Shown piece by piece: positions 4,801 to 64,000 of a stretch of DNA of 64,000 nucleotides. A program made the translations under genes and the position numbers. Under the pieces are notes generated by a model, which made no database searches, was not told where the DNA came from, and worked only from the letters and a program-made list of their open reading frames with translations. Within the stretch, counting starts at the first letter, position 1; each line of letters opens with the position of its first letter. This DNA comes from Yuukianura sp. NJ FZ-2021 (lineage: Eukaryota): the NCBI GenBank assembly GCA_046563655.1, contig CM102290.1:1674001-1738000 (forward strand), in the 5' to 3' direction.

Positions 4801-7800
4801 ATGTCAACAACGTTCCAACTCCTCATCTTCGCTACTCTCGTCGTCCTGTCTCTGTCTCTCGAGCAGAAACGAACAGGTAATGAACTTGACTATACTTTAA
4901 CTTAACAAATTAACTTTGTTAAGTTAGTTTGTTAAATTAAGTTAGTTTGTTGCGTTAAGTAAGTAGTTGTTAACAAACCTCCACGAACCTTAACCTTACA
5001 AGGTTCAACTAAGGTCATCAGTTTGAGATTGTGGACATAGGTCAATGTCCAGTGGTCACTGACCAGATGGAATGTGTCAGTTTGAGGAATGTGGACAAAG
5101 GAAGAGAAAGTGTTGTTTTGAGGTACATTTTGACTTAGCCAGGGAGCATACTGCATACCATCTCAGAAGGGGGGTTGAAATTGTTAAATATTAAGGGGGG
5201 TGGGGGGTTGTTTCGTTTCGCTCCTGTGCACATTAAAACTCAAAAGTGAACAAAGGGGGTAAGAAGTGGCCCACTTTCCACTTAAAGGTGTGACCTCCAT
5301 TCCTAAATTAAAACATTTCGTCTGTCTCAGACACTACAATGGGCCTCTCTCCCCTGAATGACCAAGGTCACCAACCCTACCTACTAATAGTAGTCTCCAC
5401 CTACACTAAAAAGTAACTTTAAGCTACAAATTAACAATTAGCGGATTACTTTTTTTACCTAATCTTCACCGTTTATCTAAGACAAAAGACATAAAACGTA
5501 TGATCTGAAACGTAACAAGGATTTGGGGTACAAAAAAATCCACCCTTGGTTATTACCATAACCAAAGCAATTGTTAATCCTTGATAACTTTATTTGGATC
5601 GACTAACGTCACTTCCTAACTTAACCTACCATATACACCAATGTGTTTTTACACATTGTGTTTCCGCATTTCGATTCCAATTACTAATTGAACCATTTCA
5701 AACTTTTTTATCGTTGAAGGTATCGGAACCACCCGAGAGGTGAATGGAAGGAGTCGTTTTGGAAACGTTCCGATTCAGCCCCGCCCACAACAGCAACAAC
5801 TCAGCCAAGAAATTCCGAGTTCGTCGACACAGGAAACGGCTGAATATGTGTACGAGTACTACGACGAACCGGACTACCAGCACTATCCACCCAGGCCACC
5901 CACCAATCATCACCATCTACAACAACAACAGCATCAGCATCAGCATCCTGGTCTGGAATCGCTGCAAGGACGCAGTGTCAATCCCGGGGTCAAAGGTCAC
6001 TCCTCACCCCCTCCGATACCTACATCGAACGTCAGAGCGAACATCTTAGCCAGTGCTAGAGATCGCTTCACCTTTACCACTTCTACCAAGAGACCTCATG
6101 TCCTACATGCTCAACTTTCAAGGTAAGTTAGGAATATTTCAAAAACGAGTACTTTTTTTTGAAATTTTGAAAGTATTTACATTTGTTCGTTTTTTTTTAG
6201 ATTTAACCCGGGTATTTCTAAAGAAACGCTTCATTTGTCTAAATCTTCGACTGAAACTCCCACAGAAGAGGAATATGAATATGTTTACGAAGATGCTGAA
6301 CATGACACTATCGAGGCCCCACCGGAGCCACCAAGCAAAGAAAAAGAAATTGAAACAAAAGTTAGTGTGTCAGTATCAGCGTCACAGCACACTTCAACTC
6401 CCATGCCGAAACAGTTGAGTCCTGAATCTGGAATTGTCATTTCTGTCGCCACAACGCGAAGTGTCAGCAGTCGCCTCAATCCGATTCCCCAAACGACTCC
6501 GTCTACACCACAAACGACTGGACAAGCACAACAAAACTTACCAGTTTCAGTACCTCCTCCAGTATTTGTGCCGTTTGTGGTCGAAAAGGCAAAGGATATC
6601 GCCAGGGCTGTACCGAACGAAAGTGCTGGAATAAGTTCGAGCGTCAGGAATACGAAAAATGAGCTGTCACGTGACACTACTGCGCAGGGCGTACCGGAAG
6701 TGAAGACAGAAAGTAGCAGTGCCAGGTCCATTGCTTCGTCAACATCAACTACGTCAACTACAACTTCACCATCTCCGTTGTTGGATCTTGGCATAAAATT
6801 TGAAGATGTGTCGAAATTCTTACCGCCGGATTACAAAAAGCCACCGCCCCCACCCCCTTCCCCACAACCCATTCATAGCCTACTGCCTAAAATACTGTTT
6901 CAGGAAGTCGTTAGCCAGGCATTCCTGCCCAAGGACTACGTTTTATCAACTCCTTCTACCACAACTGCGTTACCATCAACTTCTACAACTACTGCTGCAA
7001 GTACTACTGCCAGCACTACTGCCATTCCTGCAACTACTTCTACGACTACTACTACTGAGGCTCCAACAAGTACAACTACTACTACTCAAGCTCCGCCCCC
7101 TCCAGCTCCAGCTCCAATCAATCCTCTGCAGGCACTCATGAACAAAATTCGTTTTGACGACGACATTTCCCGCCTCCTACCGCCTGGATACAAAGAGAAA
7201 AGTCTGCTCCCGCCAGACTACAAACCACCACCATCAACCAACCAATCCGCATCCACCACTCCCACAACCACCGTGGCTCCACCCTTAACCACCGGCAGGT
7301 CTGTGGTTCCACCAAAAGTAGTTTTTCCAACGAGAGCCGGTGGGTTCAAAGCAGCCAGGCCCACGACAGCGGAGCCACCAAAGGCTGAGACACCAGCCCC
7401 ACCTAAAGTGGCACTCAAGTCTGGCTGGCCCACGAGGTAAAACGTTTCCTTAACGAAAAAAATCTTTAAAAACTAAACGTTTTTCTTGTACTTTTTTTTT
7501 TTTTTAGAAAAACGACAGAATTCACTGGATGGCCAACAGTATCAACGACACCGATGCCTACGAGCACAACGCCCTCGACGACAACTGCTGTGACGTCAAG
7601 TACCGAACCACCGACGACAACAGAACGAACTACGACCACAAAAGCTCCACCGAAACGGAATCCAGTCACATTGTGTGAGTCCAACATTTGCAAAATGGAA
7701 GCGACACTGAGACTTACGGGCGGGGTCAGATGGAAACCAGAGTATGCGGACATCAATACCGAAGAGTGGAAGCATCTTGAGAGCACTGTAAAAAGAGAGG

Positions 7801-9062: not shown

Positions 9063-12000
9063 CTACAAATTTCTGTTTAAGAAGCTTAGCAAAGTTGTCT
9101 CAAAGTGTTCACTCGCTTCCAGTCTTCGGAGACTATGACGCTCATGAGGATAAACCTAGCACAAAAAACTTTTAAATTTCAACTTCAAGTTAAAGTTTTG
9201 TCAATTTCGGAATTCGTACCTGCAAGTTGTGCGGTTTTCCTGCTTTTACAAGAGCGTTGATAAGTTGGGCCGTGTGGGTGAAATGAACATTTTCATCCAC
9301 CAGGCCATGAATTAGTAAAAGACGATTCTCTTCGTCCGGGAAAAGATGGACGTAGGAGAGGACAGAACTCCTTTGATACGCCGCAGCATTTGAACTGGGA
9401 AGACCCATGTAACGCTCAGTGTATCCAGTATCATAGAGGTCCCACGATGTCACGGGCGCTCCTGCAACTGCAACTTTAAAAAGTTTAGGAAACTGCACAA
9501 GGCCCATCAGCGTCAAGTATCCTCCGTAAGACCATCCATAGATTCCAAGTCGGTCCATGTCTATAAAACCTAGTCGTTCACCCAATGCTACAAGTACTTC
9601 CACTTGATCCTGTACTTCAACAGTACCCTGCAACACAACACAACGTAAAAACTCATGTTAATAGTAATGGGAATCCGGCGTTGGTTTTGCCTTTATTCGC
9701 AACAGGACATAATATAAGCCCAAACCCCAGGGATTGACAAATCAACCCCAAATCCCCGGGGATCGGCAAATCAACCCCAATTCCCCGCGGATTGACATAT
9801 CTTGCCCAAATCCCAGCAAATTGATTACCCAACCCCAAATCCCGGAGATTGACAACCCCAAAACCCCGGAGATTGCCAAATCAACCCCAATTGCCCGGGG
9901 ATTTATAACCCCAAATCCCCGGGAACTGATTAAACCATACACTGACTTAAACAAACACAACTTTTTTTTGTAATTTTTAAACATTACCATGCGTCGTCTG
10001 ATGTGACTTTCAAATTCAACACCTCTGTGATTTGAGCCCCTGGAATCAACGCAAACGACGCAATAGCCCTGAGAAGCCAACAAGTGTAGCCATAATTGTC
10101 CAGAACCCTGGAATTCAAAATTTAAAAACCTCAAAACTGGAAATTTTGAAGCACCAAGTTAACACTTACGCTCACTTTGTACGAGTTGTACACAAGTTGT
10201 ACTTCGGGACCACCATAGATGTTAAGAATCGTAGGATATTTTTTGGTAGGATCAAAATTTACTGGACGGTACACCATGGCATACAACGTCTCTCCAGTGT
10301 TCAGCTCATGCGTCAAAATAAGTGGAGCAGGAATCTCTGGATCTGGATTTGGAGCTGACACAAAATCCAAATTTCAAATAGATTACAAAATTTTGATGAA
10401 AATTCAAAATTCATTTTTTCAAAACTCACTCGACGAAGCATGTAAGTATGCAATGGGTTGGAGCCGCACGTCGTTATACTTGGACGGATTCTCTGAGTTG
10501 TAGACCAGTCTCGTGAGGACGCACCGTGGCGGAGTTGTGATATTGGAATAAGTGACAATGACTAAATTGTAGTCTAGAGAAATGACAGCCGTGTTGGAAC
10601 TGTCTAGAGACGTTAGTCTTTCTGGTGGTCCACCATCTTTCACTTCGTCCAGAGACACGACGTAGAGATGCCTCTCGAGCGGACTGTTCATGAGGCCAGT
10701 GAAGTACACCAAACGCCGCTCAAAATCGACTGTGATTGGTGCATTGATGACCTCCCACCGCCCACTAGTTAACTGGATTTTCCTTGACACAATTGGAGTA
10801 AGGCGTATAGCTGTGTAACAAAGTTATCATAAAGATTATGAAATTCTAAAATCTGAAATATTGAAATTCAAAATTACGAAACTTACGCGGATTTTCATTT
10901 TGAGATAGGCTAACACAGACGGGATGGCATAGAACGGATTTAACCTTATACAAATGTCTAAATCCCGTTTCCTCACTAGCCCAAATAAATTCAATCGTAT
11001 CATCATTCTCTCTGTAGGGGAAGAACTCCAAAATATCATGTACCTAGTGATTCAAAAAACCACTTTTTTAAAAAAAAAAAAGTTTTCTTTTTGAAAAAAA
11101 AAAGTTTCAAAATTTTGAAAAAAGACTTACGTTGATCCAATTGGAAGACACTTCATTGTATATAACATAAGGGGGAGGTGTTCTGTATCCATCTTTACTG
11201 CTTGGGGCTTTGATGAGAACCAACTGAAGGTACTCTTGTTCCCTGTCCAACAATTGGGTCCAAACACTGCAAATAAAAAAGTTTTTCAATATTTTATTTT
11301 TCAAAAAAAAAGTTTCAAAATTTTGATTATTTTTACTTACAAATTTCCATCGGGTGTCCAACCTGCTCTGACGAGATACTCTGCTTGAGGAAAGTAGCTC
11401 GATAAGGGATAAGAGAAATCTTTGATTTGACTCGATACGATTGTTTTCCCTTGTATCCTAAATTCTACTATTCTTAAAGTAGATTTGGCATTGGGTGATC
11501 CTGGTGTTGGAAATCGATATTCTTCTCTCTCAGTTCCCGGCGGAGTAAGGAAACTAACTAAACCAACATCCGATTCATCTACTTCTTCATATAAAATTTG
11601 ATACACTCCATCTGCCATCAAAACCAACAAATTATGAAAATCAGGAAATTTAAAAAATCAAAATTTCAAAATTTGAAGTTACCTTCACATGTCGGTTTCC
11701 ACCAAAAGCCTTGAAATCGATGAAACTCTTCTTGGATAATGTAGGATGGATAACCAGCACTCTTGGCCTGTGGATGTGGACCGGTCGAAGGCGCATGCTC
11801 TGTAAACGTTAACTGAACTTCTACTGGTTCCGGAAAGTGACCGAGAACGAAAATGTCGCCATTGAGGACATAGGCCACGAGGGATGGATTGTGTGGACAC
11901 ATTTCAAAGTTAAGTCTTGGTAAGCCTTGATGAATCAAACTTTCTGGCAGTTCCTCGGCAAGATGTGGCAGTTCTTTCTAAAAATTGCAAAATTCTCAAT

Positions 12001-24523: not shown

Positions 24524-26523
<2,000 letters not shown>

Positions 26524-35891: not shown

Positions 35892-36001
35892 GTAGTACCT
35901 TCGGGACTATAATTATAAAAATTGAAACGATACAGAGAAGATTAGCATGGCCCCTGCGCGAGAATGACACGCAAAACCCTGAAGGGTACCACATTTATTT
36001 T
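35892..36001 (+). ncRNA. U6: U6 snRNA, divergent copy (variant gene or pseudogene)
   Basis: Contains the invariant core ACGATACAGAGAAGATTAGCATGGCCCCTGCGC..ATGACACGCAAA, a 5' TTCG hairpin and a T-rich 3' end. Full U6 length. Confidence 0.9.
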
Positions 36002-47808: not shown

Positions 47809-48535
47809 TTAGTTTTCCCAGGTATTCCAACCACCCATGTCAGTGTCCTTGTTGACACGAGTCAACTTGGTTGGGTCAATTCCTTGATCCATTTTCCAGT
47901 GACTCATGTTGTAATCCCAGTACACCATATTCCGAGTATCATCGCTTGCAATGGAAAGAAATCGTGCTGGTTCTTTTCCTTCTTGTTTAGCTTTGGTCCA
48001 TTCTTCAGGCGGATCAACCGAGGTCAGGTCAACGAACTTCTTCGGCTTTGGTTTCCCATCGTCCACTTCGTTATCAGAGTCGGACTTATCACTATCTTCT
48101 ACAGCAAGACCAAGAGATATAAGGTGTGCTTTGTGTTCTCGTGCTGCTCGACGCTGTAATAGATCCAATAAGTTATTTAGTATATCTCTGTAAACATTTC
48201 AATAAGATTAGTATAATCAAGGTCTTAACAGCAAGACGTCGTCGACTGATGTAGCACACAAGTCCACACTTCCGAACAAGTTGTTCCTTCCAGTCGTTTG
48301 GTATACATATGTACGTCAGTTGTAGTTTATGGGCGACATGGAGGCATCGCATCGTAAGTTGCTTCTTGGTTAGACCGGCTTTCTTCTTCTTCGACAATTT
48401 CGTATACCATTCGCAAAGTTCTTCGATGAGTAATTCCTGCTTCCTTTCCTTCACATTAAACCGGAGACTTGCTAGTTGTTCCTCTTCGATTAATTCCTGA
48501 ACTGCTTTGGGACGGAAGGCGGAAGGAGCTGTCAT
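47809..48535 (-). CDS. Hypothetical two-exon protein (orphan)
   Basis: ORFs 48173-48556 and 47809-48168 can be joined by a phase-2 intron ending ...ctaat...tgtttacag at about 48189. The donor is uncertain (48314 or about 48270). ATG 48535 follows an acceptor, and upstream UTR-like exons are present. Confidence 0.5.
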
Positions 48536-50040
48536 CCTGCTTCTCTTCACCGACAAATTCTACATAGAAAATGAAACATCGATTTGTAAAGTTTCTCAAC
48601 TAATTAATCATTAGCGAATAGTGACATAATACCTTTATGTCTACACTGTTTTACTCCGTTCAATAACGAACAACAGTTACGATTTACGCACGACACCCCT
48701 CAAGATACTTAACTAAAACAAACTCTACGGAAACCATACAGTTACCGACAAAGACAAGCAAAAGCAAACTATTAATTAGTTTGCTTGTTTGATTAATTAA
48801 GTGGATTATTCACTTACCTTATCACAACAATGTTACACTGTAACACCGGTCAAATTGAAATCAAGGCAAGCGGATCAGCGGATGACGCGTACAATGTGTC
48901 GTGATGTACCAACGGACAAAATTGAGGTTGACTTAGCCCCGTTATACACTAATGGTCCACTTATATTGCCATTTTATGTTAGACTTGGTTATGTTAGAGC
49001 GGCTACAAATGTTGCCACCGAGGTGTAGCCACCTATTGAAGCCACACAAGATGTGAAAACCGAAACCGAAGAATCACAACAATGACACAGAATTGGCGGG
49101 CTAGAGGAAGAAAGAATGCGATAAGGAATTTATACCACCCTCCAGAGTTGGGCATTTTCATCTCACCTGCAGAGCTGGGCATTTCATTTCCATTACAAAA
49201 TAGTATCCACAAGTAGCCATTTCATTCACCAAACGCACGTTAATCGTTTTACTTCTTTTTTTTACATCAAATTTAAGCGTTTGATTCCCAACTACGAAGT
49301 TTATAGTTGCCCCAAACCTTGACCATTCTTGCCAGCGAATTAAATTTTGTCTAGTTAAAAATGATCTCAACAACAAAAATTACATTAAATTTTTATCGTG
49401 ACCGCGACGTCATATGGTTCTTAGGTACATAGTAAGTTTTATTGAGACATTGTACTTGGACGATGCGGTTGAAAGTGGCTCGCTAAAATGTTTGTAGCGG
49501 CAAGAATGGGACATGGAACACCAAAGAAAGAAAATGACGATGTCAAGGTTTGAGCGTCTTTCGGAATAGTTTACAACAGTGACAGATGAGTACATCACAG
49601 AAAAACCCGGGGAGAAAAGAAACCCGAGAAAAGAGGGAGTCAACGACACGCACTTTCTCCAAGCAAAAGGAGAAAGTCGTGGGACACCACTGCTGTGGGT
49701 TCTCCAGAAAATTTTCCAAAGAAAAAGTTGGATCCTTCCAGAATTTTTTTGTTGTTGGTAAATAAATAAAGACAGACGCTCCTTGGAGAAATACACTTAA
49801 GAACAACTAATGTGACAACTTAACAATCCTGGAAAATCTGTTGAAAACCTTCATCTTTTTATTCACAAAGGAAAGAAAGAGATACATATGCTTAAAAGTG
49901 TATTTATTCATATGGAAATGTCAACTTTTCATGCTCAGATTCTTCTTTTTAAAAACCAAATCCTACACTAACAAACGAATTTCATACTGTCAAAATTTTA
50001 AAATCAAAAACTTAACCTTACACCAGCTTTTTCTCTTTTT

Positions 50041-50191
50041 CTACCACTTTTGTCCACTAAGATTTTAATTCTACCACTTTTGTCCACTGACATTTAATTT
50101 CTACCACTTTTATCTACTAACCCTTCGTTTCTGTCACTTTTGTCCACTAACCTTTGATTTCTGCCACTTTTGTCCACTAACCTTTCATTTC
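50041..50191. repeat. Five 30-bp tandem repeats overlapping the stop codon of the SAA-like gene
   Basis: ctaccacttttgtccactaa...ttt units starting at 50041, 50071, 50101, 50131 and 50161. Confidence 0.92.
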
Positions 50192-50829
50192 AGCCATGGC
50201 CCGATCCCGTCCACGCCGATTGGCGGCCATTGTGTTCTTAACTTCCTGTGGCGTGCGCATGTCACCGTATCCTTTACGGGCAGGTCCTTTGTTGTACTTT
50301 GTTGTAAATCGAACATTTTTGTACTGCTCACGAACGGCTGAAATTCCTTCAGCTAAACGTGGATTGCCCATGCGTTTTGTTGCGTCATAGTTGGCCTTTT
50401 CATGAGCACTACAAAATACAAAATAGAAATTTTTGAAATTTGGATTTTGAAAAAGTTAGTTTGTCCGACATACTTCAAGTTTCCTCCGCGAATATTTGCT
50501 GTTCTCATGTCACTGTAGCTTTTACGGAAGTCATTCATGGATTTAACTGTATCAATTGGATGACGGATGAAAGATTTTGCAATCGTTCCAAGGCCAGTGC
50601 GATGTCCAGTTTCATCTCTCGGACGAATCTTGAAAAAGTTCTTGCCCTGAGCAACAAAAAAAATTCATGGTAAACATACCCTATAACTTATTTAAAAAAA
50701 ATATTTGACCTTTGACCTCCTTCTAAAAACATTTGACCTTTGACATACTCTTACCTCCACAAACGTCATTGCCAAAAGAAACACAAGGAAGACACCAGGA
50801 ACGCTTTTCTGAAAACCAAGCAACTGCAT
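50177..50829 (-). CDS. Serum amyloid A-like secreted protein (159 aa)
   Basis: Exons 50829-50755, 50646-50474 and 50408-50177, GT-AG and phase-compatible. Signal peptide, then DFRKSYSDMRTANIRGGNLNAHEKANYDATKRMGNPRLAEGISAVRE...AANRRGR, which aligns with SAA [47 protein letters not shown]...AANEWGR. Confidence 0.8.
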
Positions 50830-58300: not shown

Positions 58301-59226
58301 TTACACACTTTTCTGCAGCACTCTAGTGGAAAACGACTAAAAAGCAAGCAGTTTTTAGTCTGTTACGACTAAAATCAAAGTCTATTACAAGATTTAGTCT
58401 CAGCCCAAAGTCAGGAGTAATATCCCATACTACAACTATTTCATAGAAAATCAAAAGTGGATGACACAAAAAGTGATACAAAGTAGAAAAAAACACAGCA
58501 AAAAGTTGTTTCATTTTTTTTTATATCATACTCAAATCAAGTTTGATTTTTTTTTGCTGAAGGTCGTTTACGAAGATTGAATTCCTGAATTTTTAGTGTT
58601 GTTGTTGGTTAGCCATCAAGTGCAACTAAATTTTTTTTGGCATGCAAAGACTATACGCAACACTTTAAAACCAAAAGTGATTTAAGCCTCAAACCAAAAA
58701 ACAACACAACAGAAACAAGTCATCCTCGACAGAACTGGATTCCTGAAGGAGGAGGGTGGAAAACCAAGGTGTTGTGCACAATTTTCAAAAGGTTTTTGAA
58801 ACTAGTGCTCCAAAAAAACGAAAAAAGTTTAGTCCTTTGAAAGTAGGGCTAAAACTTCAAAAGAAAAGAGTAAAAATAGACGCCTCATTGAAATTTTAAA
58901 TTTCAAAAGACTTTGAAAGTTCAAGTGTTACGCGGGGTTGAAAATTTTTCTCCAACAGAAGGGTGAACACCGTGTTAAATTTTTTCTTCACAAGTTTTTT
59001 TTCTTGAAAAGGGGTCAAAACAGAAGTTTTTGAAAAAAAAAGTTTTTTGAAAGAACTTTAGTGGAAAAGGTGGTGACCAGATGGAAAGCTGCGTCGTGGT
59101 CGTCATGGTAACCACTGCAAACAGCTAGTACCGTAGTGCAATACCTTCAGTTAAGTTAGGTTGTGGTGGTTACTTTCAAAAATGGTCCAGAGGACACTAT
59201 GTAGTTACCAGAACGTGTGTGGTGAC

Positions 59227-62200
59227 ATGATGCAGAGGGGAAGTGGTTACCGTGGTTACGGTGGTTACTCGGGCTTTGTCAAAGGCTTCCTCTGTCTCAC
59301 CCTTGTTCTTAATTATGTCATCCCCTCTGCCTCTGCCTGTCCCTCTGTTTGCATTTGCAAATGGAAATCCGGAAAACAAACGGTAAGAATTTGGTTTCAT
59401 TTGTACTCTAAAACATAACTTTAAGGGTAGGTTCAGCCTAACTTTTCGGTTCTTCCAAGGGCCCTTGTGCTAAATCCTTTGACTACACATTCATCAGTCA
59501 TACTTTCCACTACTCTTCAGAGCGATTTTGGCGCGCACTTATTTGAATTATGACAAAATACTCAAAGTTAATGACGCTGAAGAGCGAGAGAGAGAGAGAA
59601 GCTTGACGGGTTATTAAAATCAACGCTTCCCGCCAACAGCTCAAAATTCAAATTAAAAACAACCCGGGTTAAGTTTAAAAAATCAAGTTATGTTTAAAAA
59701 ATTCCATGCGGTTTAAGTTTGTTTTTCAAAAAAAAAGAGTAAGAATTTGAGTGGGTACTTTTGGTGATGTGGTGTGTTGGGGATTTGGACTAGTTCCAAA
59801 AAAGTAGTTGTAAATACTGTTTGAAAATTCTTAAAAAGTGGTTTTTGGGAGCTTTAAAATTTTGCGGGGTGCGGTTTTTAAACATAATCAAGATTCTTTT
59901 TAGAGCCACTCAACCACTTCACCCTTAGTAGCTTTTCCTTCTGCTCCTTTCCAAGTTTTAGTTGTTGGTAAAAACAGTTTTTTAAGAGGGAAATGAAACG
60001 AGAAAGTCCTGTCTTTAAAAATGAATGTTTTTGGAACAGTGGAGATAGGTTTAGTTACACAAGTGAGACTTTTATGAACACCCATTTCGAAGAAAAAACA
60101 CGATAGCAAAAAGATTTACTACTCCCAAGTTGAAGTTACAGTAACTTAACGATGGTTGACTAATTAAAGAAGTTCAGTTAAAATTTCGACTTTTCCGAAT
60201 TTGGTTTTTGTGGAACAAAGAACTTTTCCGTTTGGTGAATTTCCAAACTTTGTCAATTTCTCAATTCCTGCAATCAGCTCAATTAACTTTGACATTTTAC
60301 CATTTTCAGTTTGAATCACTTTGAAAACGGGAAACTTGTTTTTAAAAAACAGTTTTGTTTATAACTCATGCAAGAAGTATTTTGTTTTCAAATTCTAATA
60401 GAAAGCAAAGGTAAAAATAAGCTTTTTGTGTTTTTGAAAACGATAATACTTTTACTTCAATTTTTTTTTGGTATTTATCAACCATTTGTTTTTAGTTTGT
60501 AGCCAAATAGAACAAATATTTTGAAAATGGAACATAATTAATGACAGAAAAACTAACATGGAAGTCACTTGTGAATTAGTTGCGCGAGTTTTCCAGGAAA
60601 TATTGACAGTAGTTTAGAAGTATGAGGAGGGAAAGGTGAAAACTTTTTAAAATGACAATCGCTATAGTATGTGGAAGAATTCGGGAATTTCCAAAATAGT
60701 GAATAATTTTGACTAAAGTTTTGTGCCCTATAATTACAAGAAGTCCAATGTGGGCATAGTACTAGAAAAAGGTGATGCCGCTAGAAATGTTGCAAAATGC
60801 TTCCAAATTATTATTTGCCTTTTACACACACTTTTTATTACAAACTAAAATTAGAACTTCCCTGGAGCCGATATTCAAATAAACTATGAAGGGATATCTG
60901 TCCAATCTAGAAATCCAATTCTGTAAACGATTATAACTTCGCAGTGTGACTAACCATGGTTACCTACATTTCGAAATATTTCAAGACAAAGACAAATAAA
61001 TCAATTCCAATTTTGAAACTAACTAAAAAATAGCTTTTTGAAGGTATAGAAATAACGCTAATGTTAGATATATAAAAAGTCAATAGCGGACAACCTATTA
61101 TTTTATGAACTGGAAATGCATAGCTTAGCTAGAAATTATTTCACTTCATAATTTTGTATTTCTTTTGCATAATTACAGTGAACTGCGTTTCTATTTTTAT
61201 TTAGATTTTTCCCAATAAGTTAAGTGAGATAGTATGCTGAAACCAAACTACCAAAATATACTTTTGAAAAAAAATTCTTTCGCTCATTTTTTTTGTAAAA
61301 TCTATAACAATTTTTTATCATTATAACAATTAATATTTCTTAGAATTTCATAATTTTTGTAATTACAAAAGGAAAAAAAATCATTTGCACCCCTAATTTC
61401 TGCGACGGAAATCCCCTCATACTGTGAAGCAAATTTTAAAATAAAATTTTTTTCTTACCCAAAAAGCGATTTTATGTTCAGCATTTTAGTTTTAACTTAT
61501 CACTTATCATCTTTGATTTTTTTTGAAAGGTACGGCAGTTTTTTCGAACGAAAAAAATGTCTGGAAACAATGTTAGTAGCGTGCTCAAAAATGTTTGTTC
61601 CTAACAAAAAAGGAAGTAGAGCAGGAATTTTCAAGTGTCGCAAAGATTTATGGACGGTTAGAAAACATGTTTTCTTCATGTTTTTGAAAAAATAAGGTTT
61701 AAGATTCTTTTTTTTTCATCTTGTTCAAGAATGCAATTATTTTTCTGCACTCTGGTCTTAACATGCAATTAATTTTTGGTACTCGGAGTTGCAAAAAAAA
61801 AAGTTTTTTCTTTTCATTTTTTTTTTGCTCTCCAAATTTTCAAATTTCCAGGGCCTCTTTGTTAAATAAAAAAGAGTTGAATTATATGAAGTTTAAGTTA
61901 GAAGCAGAGCTTCTTCTTCTTCTTTAAGTAAGAAACTTGTGAGTTTCGGAGAAACCTTTAACGAGAATGTTGTCTGGAAAAGTTAGTTGGACAAAATCAA
62001 GAAGTCGTATATTTAACTTTCTTGTTTCTCCAACTTCCTTTGACTTTTTATTTTACTTTTACGGCTCCTTCCTAAAAAAAAGTTCAGGAGACTCCAAACG
62101 TCCTGTTTTTAGAAAATATACATAAAAACACTTTTTCATAAAACTACAAAAAAAAACTGATTTTTCTTTCCGCTTCTGGTTTCCTCACCTTCCAGTTTAG

Positions 62201-62605
62201 TCTGTAAATACTAACATTAATTCAAAACTTACAAATTTTCTGTTTAAGAAACGGAAGCGACTGAGTAAAAAAAAAGTTAAAAAAATTGAAAACAATTTCT
62301 AAAAATTTTGAATCTTTTTTTTAGGTTGAATGTGAGAATCAAAACCTGAGTGCTCTTCCAGACGGAATCTACGCCGAAACGCAAGTACTCAACATTTCAG
62401 GCAATCGACTCGGAGTTCTTCCGCGAGACGCGTTTTTACGCGCCGGACTTCTGAATTTGCAAAGAATTTACGCCCGTAATTCGCGTCTCCGACAAATTGA
62501 TCCTTTAGCATTCAATGAACTCATCAATCTTGTAGAATTGGATTTAAGTGATAATCTACTGACGGCAGTTCCATCAAATGCTTTTAAATCTACACAATTC
62601 CTCAG
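59227..62605 (+). CDS. kek: Kekkon family LRR-Ig transmembrane protein (kek1/2/3 type), first two coding exons; continues beyond the window
   Basis: Exon 59227(or 59182)-59382 encodes a signal peptide plus CPSVCICKWKSGKQT. Exon 62325-62605 encodes VEC..L..LP..I..ETQVLNISGN.L..L..DAF.RAGLLNLQRIY...NLVELDLSDNLLTAVPS. Matches the Kek1 N-terminus CKWKGGKQTVEC. Confidence 0.9.
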
Positions 62606-64000
62606 GTAAACAGTAACGCTTTTACAATTCAAGGCTAAAAAAGTTAACACTTTCAAAAAACGGAAGGTGACAAGTGTAGGTGTGAAAATTCTCACTTTCA
62701 CCTTTTTTCAATTTTGGCACACACAGCAGTATGTTTTGGAATGTTAAACGTTTGAGGCTTTTTTTGGAAAGAAGAAAAATGTTCGCTCAAGGTGAAAGTT
62801 ATCGATTAGAAAAATGCTATCACGAGCTTTCACTCTTTTTTTTAATACCAATAAGGAAGTTGATGTGTCAAAATCAGTCATCGCCATCATTCTATCACGT
62901 CGCGGTACACATTTGACTGCGTCAATATTGAAATGAAACTATGAAATGGTTTTTATATATTTTTCAAAAAAAAAAATTGAAAACAAAAAGAAACGTTGTC
63001 TTCCGGCTACGGAAACTCAAAAAAAAATTGAAATCGAAAAATCATATTATTTGAAAAACTTTTCTTTTCGTTTTTTAGACAAATTAATGGACCTGTTTTT
63101 TTAAAGGCTCCAAGAGTTATGTATCTTTTTTTTTCAAAATTTTGAAAAGATAGTGTGAAAAAATGTGAATCAGAGAAAAGTGAGAAACGGTTTTTGAGCG
63201 ATTCAAAAATCTTTTCTCAACTAATCAAGCTGGAATTTTGACACGCTTTTTTTTTCCTTTTTATACTTTTCTCCTTTAAAACTTTTTTTTCCAAAAACAT
63301 TTCACTCGTTTTTTTTTTCAAAAAAGTTTTCCTTTGGCGCTGCTGTTTGAAACTGTTGAAAGTTGGTCCATTTGGAGTCTAATGAACCGATTCCTTGTTT
63401 CCTAAAGAACCAATTTGAATGATGTTAGTTGAAAATTTATTTTCATTTGAGCACCAACGCATTCTACAAAGAATGGCGCCAAAAATCGTGAAATTCAAAA
63501 TTTTCAAAATTCAAATTCCCGGATTTCCGGAAACTACTAAGTTCGGTTTCCTACGGTTAGTACATTAGTGTCTCTGTCTGGTTTTAATTCCCATGACAAC
63601 CGAATGAGAACTTTCACTCTGTTCGGTTGTGCTTTTCTGGCTTTTCAAAAAGCTTTTTTAGAAAGGCTTTCAGAAACTCCGCCCAAGAAATTGTAGAAAA
63701 GTGAAAGGTTCCATTTTGCTTTTCTCAAAAACTGTTTTCTGAAATCAAATTGTGAGCATCAAAATATTTAATACCCACTTGAGTCTTCTGTCCTTTTGTT
63801 TGGTTCAAGGTTTTCCTTTGAGGTTTTTCCCTCTCCCTTCCAGAACAGACTTTGAAAAAGGCGGGAAAGTTTGCCTCTTTTGAAACTTTCTCTCCCTTTG
63901 ATTTCTCCACTTCCTTGGAAACACTTAAGGACTTGCACGTAATTAGGTTCTCCATTGGGAGTCAAAGTCTCAGCACTTTTTAATACGCTCCAACTTCAAA

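What the first reader, a model, noticed from the sequence alone, without database searches (positions are those of the whole stretch)
50177..50829. Serum amyloid A-like gene in an arthropod-type genome, with remodelled hallmark motifs
Seen: the three-exon model gives MQLLGFQKSVPGVFLVFLLAMTFVEG-KNFFKIRPRDETGHRTGLGTIAKSFIRHPIDTVKSMNDFRKSYSDMRTANIRGGNLNAHEKANYDATKRMGNPRLAEGISAVREQYKNVRFTTKYNKGPARKGYGDMRTPQEVKNTMAANRRGRDRAMAEMKG. YSDMR.AN, H...NYDA.KR, AE.IS..RE and AAN..GR match SAA in order and near-identical spacing. The conserved DKYFHARG and GPGG are replaced by NLNAHEKA and MGNP. There is a basic insertion containing a second YGDMRT copy, and the Pro-rich tail is missing. Known: SAA is an acute-phase, lipid-binding four-helix protein of vertebrates with patchy invertebrate occurrence, and I know of none in Drosophila. 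Inference: a strongly cationic secreted SAA derivative, possibly an antimicrobial or immune effector.
Basis: partly seen in the sequence, partly recalled or inferred. Interest (0 to 1): 0.75.

Follow-up and report, generated by a model that had tools for sequence, protein, structure and literature searches.

The report
Cnidarian-type SAA-like gene in arthropod
An arthropod genome carries an intact three-exon gene for a small, secreted, strongly basic relative of the immune protein serum amyloid A, and its only named close relatives are in corals, sea anemones and a hydroid.

Summary
The minus-strand exons 50829-50755, 50646-50474 and 50408-50177 have GT-AG introns. They give a 159-residue precursor: a signal-like exon, then a 133-residue basic domain with no cysteine. 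The protein is homologous to serum amyloid A (SAA), but it is not a canonical SAA. Exon 3 alone scores below Pfam's SAA cut-off. The gene belongs to a family of 72 proteins. A profile of 38 of its sequences hits only SAA chains among solved structures (8 of 8, E down to 3.7e-7). A model of a relative 54-61% identical superposes on human and mouse SAA at Z 9.2-9.6, with the next match at 3.3. The His, Glu and sNxxGR positions are kept. New parts are a conserved N-terminal DETGHRTGLGT motif and a beta-hairpin insert. The SAA tail is absent. A neighbouring DPP9 exon has arthropod best hits. All 13 organism-named relatives of the gene are cnidarian. Contamination is unlikely. Whether the gene is an old relic or came by transfer is unresolved. 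No transcript data were found, and an immune-effector role is inferred only.

The parts
50755..50829 (-). Exon 1: ATG plus 25 codons. It has a signal-peptide-like segment with hydrophobic core VPGVFLVFLLAMTFV. The likely cleavage site is after the Gly that starts exon 2.
   Evidence: Kyte-Doolittle 11-residue means up to 2.84. The donor is GAG|GTAAGA. Complete relatives also start with a signal-like segment. The cleavage site is inferred, because no signal-peptide predictor was available.
50647..50754 (-). Intron 1: 108 nt, GT...AG, phase 0, GC 0.29.
50474..50646 (-). Exon 2: the conserved N-terminal motif (RPRDETGHRTGLGT) and helix 1, ending ...YSDMRTANIRGGNL.
   Evidence: P0001. It aligns to relatives. 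The helix assignment comes from the model of relative P0005.
50409..50473 (-). Intron 2: 65 nt, GT...AG, phase 2, GC 0.25.
   Evidence: The alignment to the family HMM runs across the junction without a gap.
50177..50408 (-). Exon 3: helix 2 (His85), helix 3 (Glu109), a beta-hairpin insert with GDMRT, helix 4 with AANRRGR (Asn144, Gly147, Arg148), then the TAG stop.
   Evidence: P0002. Pfam SAA E 0.011. AlphaFold model of this exon: pLDDT 84.5, helices 2-13, 16-30 and 53-75, strands 34-37 and 44-47. Conserved columns.
50038..50191 (.). A 30-bp tandem repeat of 5.1 copies. Its first unit supplies the last codons and the stop of the gene. The rest lies in the presumed 3' UTR.
49903..49908 (-). 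AATAAA, a candidate polyadenylation signal 269 nt after the stop.
   Evidence: Read. Its use is inferred.

Best explanation
This is a real, intact arthropod gene. It encodes a secreted, very basic protein of about 15 kDa that is homologous to serum amyloid A. It belongs to a distinct subfamily without the SAA tail. The subfamily is marked by a conserved N-terminal DETGHRTGLGT motif and a beta-hairpin with GD(T/M)RT between helices 3 and 4. Its named members are otherwise all cnidarian.

Shown: the gene structure, the homology, the fold of a close relative, and retention of the family's conserved residues.

Inferred mechanism: after secretion, the four-helix cone takes up the tail of a lipid. 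The positive surface charge (31 Lys+Arg against 14 Asp+Glu) draws the protein to anionic microbial envelopes. His85, Glu109, Asn144 and Arg148 correspond to the pocket positions that Burroughs et al. 2025 predict act on phosphate-linked lipid head groups. In this reading they bind or cleave such a head group, which makes the protein an extracellular defence effector. The origin is unresolved: an old animal paralogue lost almost everywhere, or a transfer into this arthropod lineage.

The confidence of 0.55 is for the whole statement. I put the gene and its SAA homology at about 0.9 and the defence-effector role at about 0.45.
For: Gene structure: canonical splice sites and a 480-nt frame. The family HMM aligns without a gap across junction 2 at 171.8 bits.

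Homology: exon 3 hits Pfam SAA at E 0.011. 32 of the 38 sequences in alignment A2 hit SAA at E<=0.01, best 1.1e-7; the 38 include the window's two exon peptides. 21 of the 72 family proteins carry a precomputed PF00277 hit. The family profile against all PDB sequences gives 8 hits at E<=1, and all 8 are SAA, at 3.7e-7 to 2.3e-4.

Fold: the AlphaFold model of relative P0005 has pLDDT 80.2 and pTM 0.70. P0005 is 61% and 54% identical to exons 2 and 3 by alignment A1. The first 7 Foldseek hits are all native SAA, with probability 0.93-1.00; the next hit has 0.05. VIA-align gives Z 9.2-9.6 over 83-88 residues at rmsd 2.9-3.1; the next hit is at 3.3.

Constraint: the window keeps 39 of the 43 columns that are at least 90% conserved in 78 relatives, including His, Glu, Asn, Gly and Arg.

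Secretion and charge.

Host setting: the window has no N. The DPP9 exon's organism-named best hits are all arthropods. The gene's GC and GC3 lie within the range of neighbouring ORFs.

Literature: the pocket residues, the sNxxGR motif and the predicted lipid head-group chemistry come from PMC12419801, sections 7, 9 and 37. SAA genes respond to infection in a tick and a prawn (passages read).
Against: No transcript evidence could be obtained. The window's own peptides do not reach Pfam's SAA cut-off: exon 3 scores 16.5 bits against 30.8, and exon 2 has no hit. The whole spliced protein could not be scanned against Pfam. Single-exon phmmer searches against PDB found no SAA. The model of exon 3 alone did not retrieve SAA; the best Z was 2.7. 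The C-terminal tail, or fifth helix, which PMC12419801 treats as shared by the SAA-Wnt clade, is absent. Catalysis by any animal SAA is a published prediction, not a demonstrated activity. No binding, killing or induction was tested here. P0008, the window's nearest relative on the tree, has lost the His and the Asn, so these residues are not indispensable in every lineage.
Confidence: 0.55

Rival explanations
1. The molecule is the same, but it is a passive carrier and not a defence effector. It would be a haemolymph or gut lipid- or retinoid-binding protein, like the HDL-associated and retinol-binding roles of vertebrate SAA, with no catalysis and no role in killing microbes.
For: The fold matches SAA structures, including mouse SAA3 bound to retinol (6py0). 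No enzymatic activity of an animal SAA has been shown; PMC12419801 section 37 only proposes one. P0008 lacks the His and the Asn.
Against: The window keeps the His, Glu, Asn, Gly and Arg positions. A net charge of about +17 is unusual for a simple lipid carrier and fits binding to anionic surfaces. SAA genes respond to infection in a tick and a prawn.
Confidence: 0.2
2. The gene entered this arthropod lineage by horizontal transfer from a cnidarian-like eukaryote. It was then domesticated: introns were gained and the Ser/Arg-rich linker was lost.
For: All 13 organism-named relatives, from 11 species, are cnidarians, and no arthropod is named among the 72 family proteins (lineages checked for three species). 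The window is up to 62% identical to relatives on the hydroid side of the tree. The modelled relative is only 25-28% identical to vertebrate SAA. Other agents' unchecked notes describe this genome as rich in transferred genes.
Against: The window and P0008 form their own branch against all 38 other rows, with support 94/94. That also fits vertical descent if the root lies on that branch. The window's distance to cnidarians is about the same as the distance between hydrozoan and anthozoan members (62% each). Its intron positions differ from those inferred for cnidarian genes. Its composition matches the host. So any transfer would be old. Most relatives are unnamed and could include non-cnidarians.
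Confidence: 0.3
3. The gene is an assembly artefact or contamination: a piece of cnidarian DNA wrongly joined to an arthropod contig, or a decaying, unexpressed relic.
For: The nearest named relatives belong to another phylum. No run holding this stretch was listed. No paralogue lies in the window.
Against: The 64-kb window has no N. GC runs smoothly between 0.32 and 0.45. An arthropod-type DPP9 exon lies on the same sequence. The gene lacks the intron that cnidarian gene calls imply inside the Gly codon of HRTG|LGT, and it has two short AT-rich introns of its own. The best identity to any of about 15 billion proteins is only 61-62%. The frame is intact and 39 of 43 conserved positions are kept.
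Confidence: 0.05
4. The resemblance to SAA is chance or convergence in a small helical protein, and the family is unrelated to SAA.
For: Single-exon searches were weak. Foldseek E-values were 0.11-0.64. Helical bundles give middling structural scores easily (notes).
Against: The only PDB sequences hit by the family profile are SAA, 8 of 8. 32 of 38 family members hit the same Pfam family. The motif order and spacing and the sNxxGR motif agree. SAA stands 6 Z units above the next structure.
Confidence: 0.03

Closest known systems
Vertebrate serum amyloid A (human SAA1, PDB 4IP8/4IP9; mouse SAA3, 4Q5G/6PXZ/6PY0)
   Same: Both are secreted. Both have the four-helix cone: Z 9.2-9.6 over 83-88 residues for the model of a close relative. 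The motif blocks have the same order and spacing. The His in helix 2, the Glu in helix 3 and the sNxxGR motif in helix 4 are kept.
   Different: Identity is only 25-28%. The window protein has a conserved N-terminal extension (DETGHRTGLGT) before helix 1. It has a beta-hairpin insert between helices 3 and 4. It ends 11 residues after the GR, so there is no C-terminal tail. The calculated pI is 10.6-10.7.
Cnidarian 'uncharacterized' SAA-like proteins (for example XP_057295121.1 of Hydractinia symbiolongicarpus, LOC116613261 of Nematostella vectensis, LOC107358347 of Acropora digitifera)
   Same: They share the subfamily's N-terminal motif, the GGNL.AHE.AN block, ISA.REQYK, the GD(T/M)RT hairpin, the M.AN..GR end, and the lack of a tail. 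Identity to the window is up to 62%.
   Different: Most have a long Ser/Arg-rich linker between the signal peptide and the domain. Some are auto-named 'micronuclear linker histone polyprotein', and the linker is my guess for why. The window has no linker. Their gene calls imply an intron inside the Gly codon of HRTG|LGT (inferred from P0034 and P0035), which the window lacks. The window has Met in place of Thr in GDTRT and a longer hairpin, both shared with P0008.
Arthropod SAA genes already reported: tick serum amyloid A (Antunes et al. [quoted passage not shown]
   Same: These are SAA-family genes in arthropods, and they are reported as responding to infection (passages read).
   Different: No arthropod-named protein appeared among the 72 relatives of the window's subfamily, so they are probably of the canonical type. 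That is an inference.
Bacterial SAA-like and other lipocone toxin domains (prok-SAA, TelC; Bacteroides fragilis T6SS effector BteO, PDB 9UU0)
   Same: According to PMC12419801 they belong to the same superfamily. In the search over PDB representatives that does not use Foldseek, the best match of the model was BteO residues 375-500, at Z 6.3 over 104 residues.
   Different: Identity to BteO is 14% and the Z is middling for a helical protein. Those domains are tips of large bacterial toxins. This gene encodes a stand-alone secreted animal protein.

Membership tests
Serum amyloid A (Pfam PF00277; 'Met-SAA' of the lipocone superfamily) | The protein itself scores above Pfam's gathering cut-off (30.8 bits). 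| tested here: inconclusive
   Only single-exon peptides could be scanned. Exon 3 scores 16.5 bits at E 0.011, and exon 2 has no hit. The whole spliced protein was not scanned. The nearest relatives score 14.8-29.1 bits.
Serum amyloid A (Pfam PF00277; 'Met-SAA' of the lipocone superfamily) | Significant sequence-profile relationship to bona fide SAA. | tested here: met
   The family profile A2, which includes the window's exon peptides, was run against 177,635 PDB sequences. All 8 hits at E<=1 are SAA, at E 3.7e-7 to 2.3e-4. 32 of 38 members hit PF00277 at E<=0.01. 21 of 72 relatives carry a precomputed PF00277 hit.
Serum amyloid A (Pfam PF00277; 'Met-SAA' of the lipocone superfamily) | Four-helix cone fold of native SAA. 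| tested here: met
   This was met for the relative P0005, which is 54-61% identical to the window's exons. Foldseek's first 7 hits are all SAA. VIA-align gives Z 9.2-9.6, with the next hit at 3.3. The model of the window's exon 3 alone shows the same helix-helix-hairpin-helix elements, but it did not retrieve SAA by itself.
SAA-Wnt (SAW) clade of lipocones (PMC12419801, section 9) | sNxxGR motif in helix 4, plus the pocket His (helix 2) and Glu (helix 3). | tested here: met
   The motif is AANRRGR. His85, Glu109, Asn144, Gly147 and Arg148 sit in family columns that are at least 90% conserved. The His and the Glu align to those of human SAA1.
SAA-Wnt (SAW) clade of lipocones (PMC12419801, section 9) | A fifth C-terminal helix or tail packing between helices 2 and 4. 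| tested here: not met
   The protein ends 11 residues after the GR. The last helix of both models runs to the C-terminus. The superposition covers residues 2-91 of the 105-residue 4ip8 chain. For this reason it is filed as a tail-less SAA-like subfamily and not as a canonical SAA.
Serum amyloid A (function) | Acute-phase induction and binding of lipid or HDL. | not testable with these tools

The most novel reading that the evidence does not exclude
An animal-to-animal gene transfer: a secreted SAA-type defence protein of the cnidarian kind was taken up by an arthropod lineage, acquired its own introns, lost the Ser/Arg linker, and has been kept under constraint with its predicted lipid head-group active site intact.
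Probability: 0.3. Interest if true: 0.75.

Novelty: new variant of a known kind. Interest (0 to 1): 0.45.

Why it matters
SAA is a classic acute-phase protein, and its molecular activity is still debated. This gene belongs to a well-conserved but unnamed branch of the family. That branch lacks the tail and carries two extra conserved elements, while keeping the residues recently proposed to form an active site. It therefore offers an independent system for testing whether SAA-type proteins are enzymes acting on microbial lipids. The distribution is also unusual: cnidarians plus one arthropod lineage. It means either very wide loss of an ancient paralogue or a rare transfer between animals. A rooted tree and a screen of hexapod genomes could settle which.

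Tried and rejected
- Word-index search with the 92-residue ORF around exon 3: no candidate.
- phmmer of each exon peptide against PDB: no SAA. The best hits were RecX at E 0.45 and Alr5209 at E 0.68, both taken as chance.
- Whole genome of the window: none is held.
- RNA evidence: no RNA holder was listed.
- Earlier notes of this scan about this place, this sequence or SAA: none.
- ESM Atlas with exon 3: best score 0.85, to unnamed clusters, so uninformative. ESM Atlas with the downstream neighbour ORF: no usable hit.
- Paralogue in the window: tblastn gave a collinear pair of weak hits at 63316-63654 (E 0.82). On reading, this is low-complexity sequence without the family motifs, so it was rejected.
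- P0004, a 411-residue repeat protein, was a spurious hit of the phmmer search and was dropped.
The single protein P0008 then found no confirmed locus. The intron positions of relatives therefore could not be read from DNA.
- Model of exon 3 alone against PDB: no SAA among Foldseek's 58 chains, best Z 2.7. A partial domain is not a fair test.
- VIA-align over 48,161 PDB representatives: SAA was not among the 50 rows shown, and the best match was BteO at Z 6.3.
- Literature: no paper holds both 'serum amyloid A' and 'Collembola'. None holds any of six LOC identifiers of cnidarian relatives. The searches gave nothing relevant.
- Supplements of PMC12419801: the motifs GDTRT, GDMRT, ETGHRTG and HRTGLGT and three accession numbers occur in none of the 6 readable supplementary files. 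One PDF could not be read.

Full report
**Observation.** The region 50177-50829 holds a minus-strand gene of three exons.

- Exon 1 is 50829-50755. It holds the ATG and 25 codons, with donor GAG|GTAAGA.
- Intron 1 is 108 nt and ends in a pyrimidine tract plus CAG.
- Exon 2 is 50646-50474, with donor AA|GTATGT.
- Intron 2 is 65 nt.
- Exon 3 is 50408-50177 and ends in TAG.

Joined by coordinates in a script, the exons give 480 nt, which is 159 codons plus the stop. The precursor has pI 10.6, 31 Lys+Arg against 14 Asp+Glu, and no cysteine. Its N-terminal hydrophobic core resembles a signal peptide. The frame of exon 2 has no start codon of its own, so an upstream exon is needed. A 30-bp tandem repeat of 5.1 copies (50038-50191) supplies the last codons and the stop. 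An AATAAA lies 269 nt further on. tblastn of the spliced protein found no paralogue in the window. The only collinear weak hits, at 63316-63654, are low-complexity sequence.

**First tests on the window's own peptides were weak.** Exon 3 (P0002, 76 residues) hits Pfam SAA at E 0.011 and 16.5 bits, against a cut-off of 30.8. Exon 2 (P0001) hits nothing. phmmer of each exon against PDB sequences found no SAA. The joined protein could not be passed to these tools, so the case rests on relatives.

**The family.**

- phmmer of exon 3 against 1.84 billion representative proteins gave 9 hits at E<=0.001. Eight are true relatives, at 42-61% identity. One (P0004) is a spurious repeat protein.
- Of the eight, 5 hit Pfam SAA below the cut-off, at 14.8-29.1 bits, and 3 do not hit it.
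- A profile search with alignment A1 found 72 proteins at E<=0.01. Of these, 21 carry a precomputed PF00277 hit.
- An HMM of 78 relatives built without the window aligns residues 27-156 of the spliced protein in one stretch of 171.8 bits, with no gap at the exon 2/3 junction. This validates that junction.
- The window keeps 39 of the 43 columns that are at least 90% conserved in those 78 relatives.

**Relationship to SAA.**

- A profile of 38 family sequences (A2, which includes the window's two exon peptides) was searched against all PDB sequences. It hits 8 sequences at E<=1, and all 8 are SAA. The best are 7zky at 3.7e-7 and 4ip8 at 5.6e-7.
- 32 of the 38 sequences hit Pfam SAA at E<=0.01.
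- AlphaFold2 on A2, with the relative P0005 as target, gave pLDDT 80.2 and pTM 0.70. P0005 is 61% and 54% identical to exons 2 and 3.
- The model has a disordered N-terminus, helices 21-52, 59-73, 75-91 and 109-127, and a beta-hairpin at 93-103.
- Foldseek's first 7 PDB hits are all native SAA, with target TM 0.55-0.68, probability 0.93-1.00 and E 0.11-0.64. The next hit has probability 0.05.
- VIA-align on those chains gives Z 9.2-9.6 over 83-88 residues, at rmsd 2.9-3.1 A and 25-28% identity. The next hit is at 3.3.
- The search over PDB representatives that does not use Foldseek did not list SAA. Its best matches were the T6SS effector BteO at Z 6.3, and a WNT8A complex at Z 4.7 in rank 9. 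Those matches are weak. They are in line with the lipocone superfamily proposed in PMC12419801.
- The model of the window's exon 3 alone has pLDDT 84.5 and shows the same helix-helix-hairpin-helix elements. It did not retrieve SAA by itself.

**What is the same as SAA and what differs.** According to PMC12419801 (sections 7 and 9, read), SAA and Wnt form a clade of the lipocone superfamily. The clade has pocket residues His (helix 2), Glu (helix 3) and an sNxxGR motif (helix 4), plus a fifth C-terminal helix.

- Kept in the window: His85, Glu109 and AANRRGR.
- Missing: the tail, or fifth helix.
- Added: two subfamily-wide elements. One is the motif DETGHRTGLGT ahead of helix 1. The other is a hairpin insert carrying G-D-T/M-R-T.

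I therefore file the gene as a tail-less SAA-like subfamily, homologous to SAA but not canonical. The motifs of this subfamily do not occur in the 6 readable supplementary files of PMC12419801; one PDF could not be read. No paper in the library names six LOC identifiers of its cnidarian members.

**Host and distribution.**

- The window is eukaryotic: it holds a U6 snRNA.
- A DPP9-type exon at 9193-9657 has 7501 hits, and the best 120 were listed. Every organism-named row among them is an arthropod, at 65-73% identity. Diptera and thrips cover most of the query.
- Other agents' unchecked notes call the genome springtail-like and rich in transferred genes. I confirmed only the arthropod affinity.
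- By contrast, all 13 organism-named relatives of the SAA-like gene are cnidarian. They come from 11 species in the genera Hydractinia, Acropora (four species), Actinostola, Actinia, Nematostella, Oculina, Pocillopora and Orbicella.
- The lineages of three of those species were checked. The cnidarian status of the rest is from my own knowledge.
- SAA as such is already reported in ticks and prawns (passages read).

**Contamination is unlikely.**

- The window has no N.
- GC is smooth along the window.
- The gene's GC (0.455) and GC3 (0.42) lie within the range of neighbouring ORFs, and its introns are short and AT-rich.
- Cnidarian gene calls that read through an intron (P0034, P0035) place one inside the Gly codon of HRTG|LGT. 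Many other gene calls begin just before GLGT. The window has no intron there and has its own at other positions. This point is an inference from protein sequences.

**Trees.** I used 38 and 39 of the 78 relatives. I left out P0004 (spurious) before that count. From the 78 I left out P0013 and P0014 (near-duplicates of P0005), P0078-P0081 (truncated), P0034, P0035, P0048 and P0069 (intron read-through), and every call lacking the GLGT block.

- A branch with support 100/99 separates 31 rows from the rest. All six anthozoan-named rows in the tree lie among those 31.
- The remaining rows are the window, P0008, P0029, P0003/P0016, P0006, P0015 and the Hydractinia pair.
- The window joins P0008, an unnamed 151-residue protein that shares GDMRT and GNP.(L/V)AE, with support 94/94 against all others.
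- The root is unknown. The tree fits vertical descent if the root lies on that branch. It also fits an old transfer from the hydrozoan side.
- The window's identity to these relatives is up to 62%. That equals the identity between the Hydractinia-cluster protein P0005 and the Nematostella members. Either history would therefore be ancient.

**Mechanism.**

- Shown: a secretory-type precursor, an SAA-type cone in a close relative, the pocket residues retained, and strong positive charge.
- Inferred: the protein acts outside cells on microbial or other lipids. I take defence as the most likely role, at about 0.45. This rests on the published prediction that animal SAAs keep an active site for phosphate-linked lipid head groups (PMC12419801, section 37) and on infection-responsive SAA genes in other arthropods.
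- A passive lipid-carrier role is the main rival.
- P0008 has lost the His and the Asn. This warns against assuming catalysis.
- No expression data exist here.

**Verdict.** The added twist is that it is a member of an unnamed, cnidarian-dominated, tail-less SAA subfamily sitting in an arthropod genome. Interest is moderate. Its origin and activity are open and testable.

Noticed in passing
window 35892-35998 (+): A full-length U6 spliceosomal snRNA gene (94.9 bits, E 3e-23).
   Followed up: no
window 50038-50191: A 30-bp minisatellite of 5.1 copies. Its first unit encodes the last residues and the stop codon of the SAA-like gene. The unit also contains AAAG|GTTAGT, which looks like a splice donor. 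Relatives end at the same point with ...G, so a fourth exon is not needed.
   Followed up: partly
window 9190-9657 (-): An exon of a DPP9-type dipeptidyl peptidase. All organism-named best hits are arthropods at 65-73% identity, and none is closer, so the species has no near relative among the named proteins.
   Followed up: partly
window 59155-59418 and 62325-62609 (+): Exons of a leucine-rich-repeat protein (LRR_8, E 3e-11), preceded by a signal-like and cysteine-rich N-terminal cap.
   Followed up: no
window 25891-26523 (+): A proline-rich ORF ending in three C2H2 zinc fingers. It looks like the Sp/KLF type, but that name is from recall and not from a call.
   Followed up: no
window 6163-7440 (+): A 425-residue open frame rich in Pro, Thr and Ser, with repeated LLPPDYK-like motifs. 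It looks mucin-like and has no Pfam hit at E<=0.001.
   Followed up: no
window 47809-48559 (-): Two adjoining ORFs of 128-129 residues just downstream of the SAA-like gene. They have no Pfam hit and no Atlas hit, so the neighbour is unidentified.
   Followed up: partly
relatives P0020, P0021: Sea-anemone members of the family are auto-named 'micronuclear linker histone polyprotein(-like)', probably because of their long Ser/Arg/Lys-rich linker. That annotation hides an SAA-like domain.
   Followed up: partly
model mff49e007e361 (relative P0005): In the structure search over PDB representatives that does not use Foldseek, the best match is the toxin part of the Bacteroides fragilis T6SS effector BteO (9uu0_B residues 375-500, Z 6.3). 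A WNT8A complex is at Z 4.7. Both are weak, but they are in line with the proposed lipocone superfamily.
   Followed up: no
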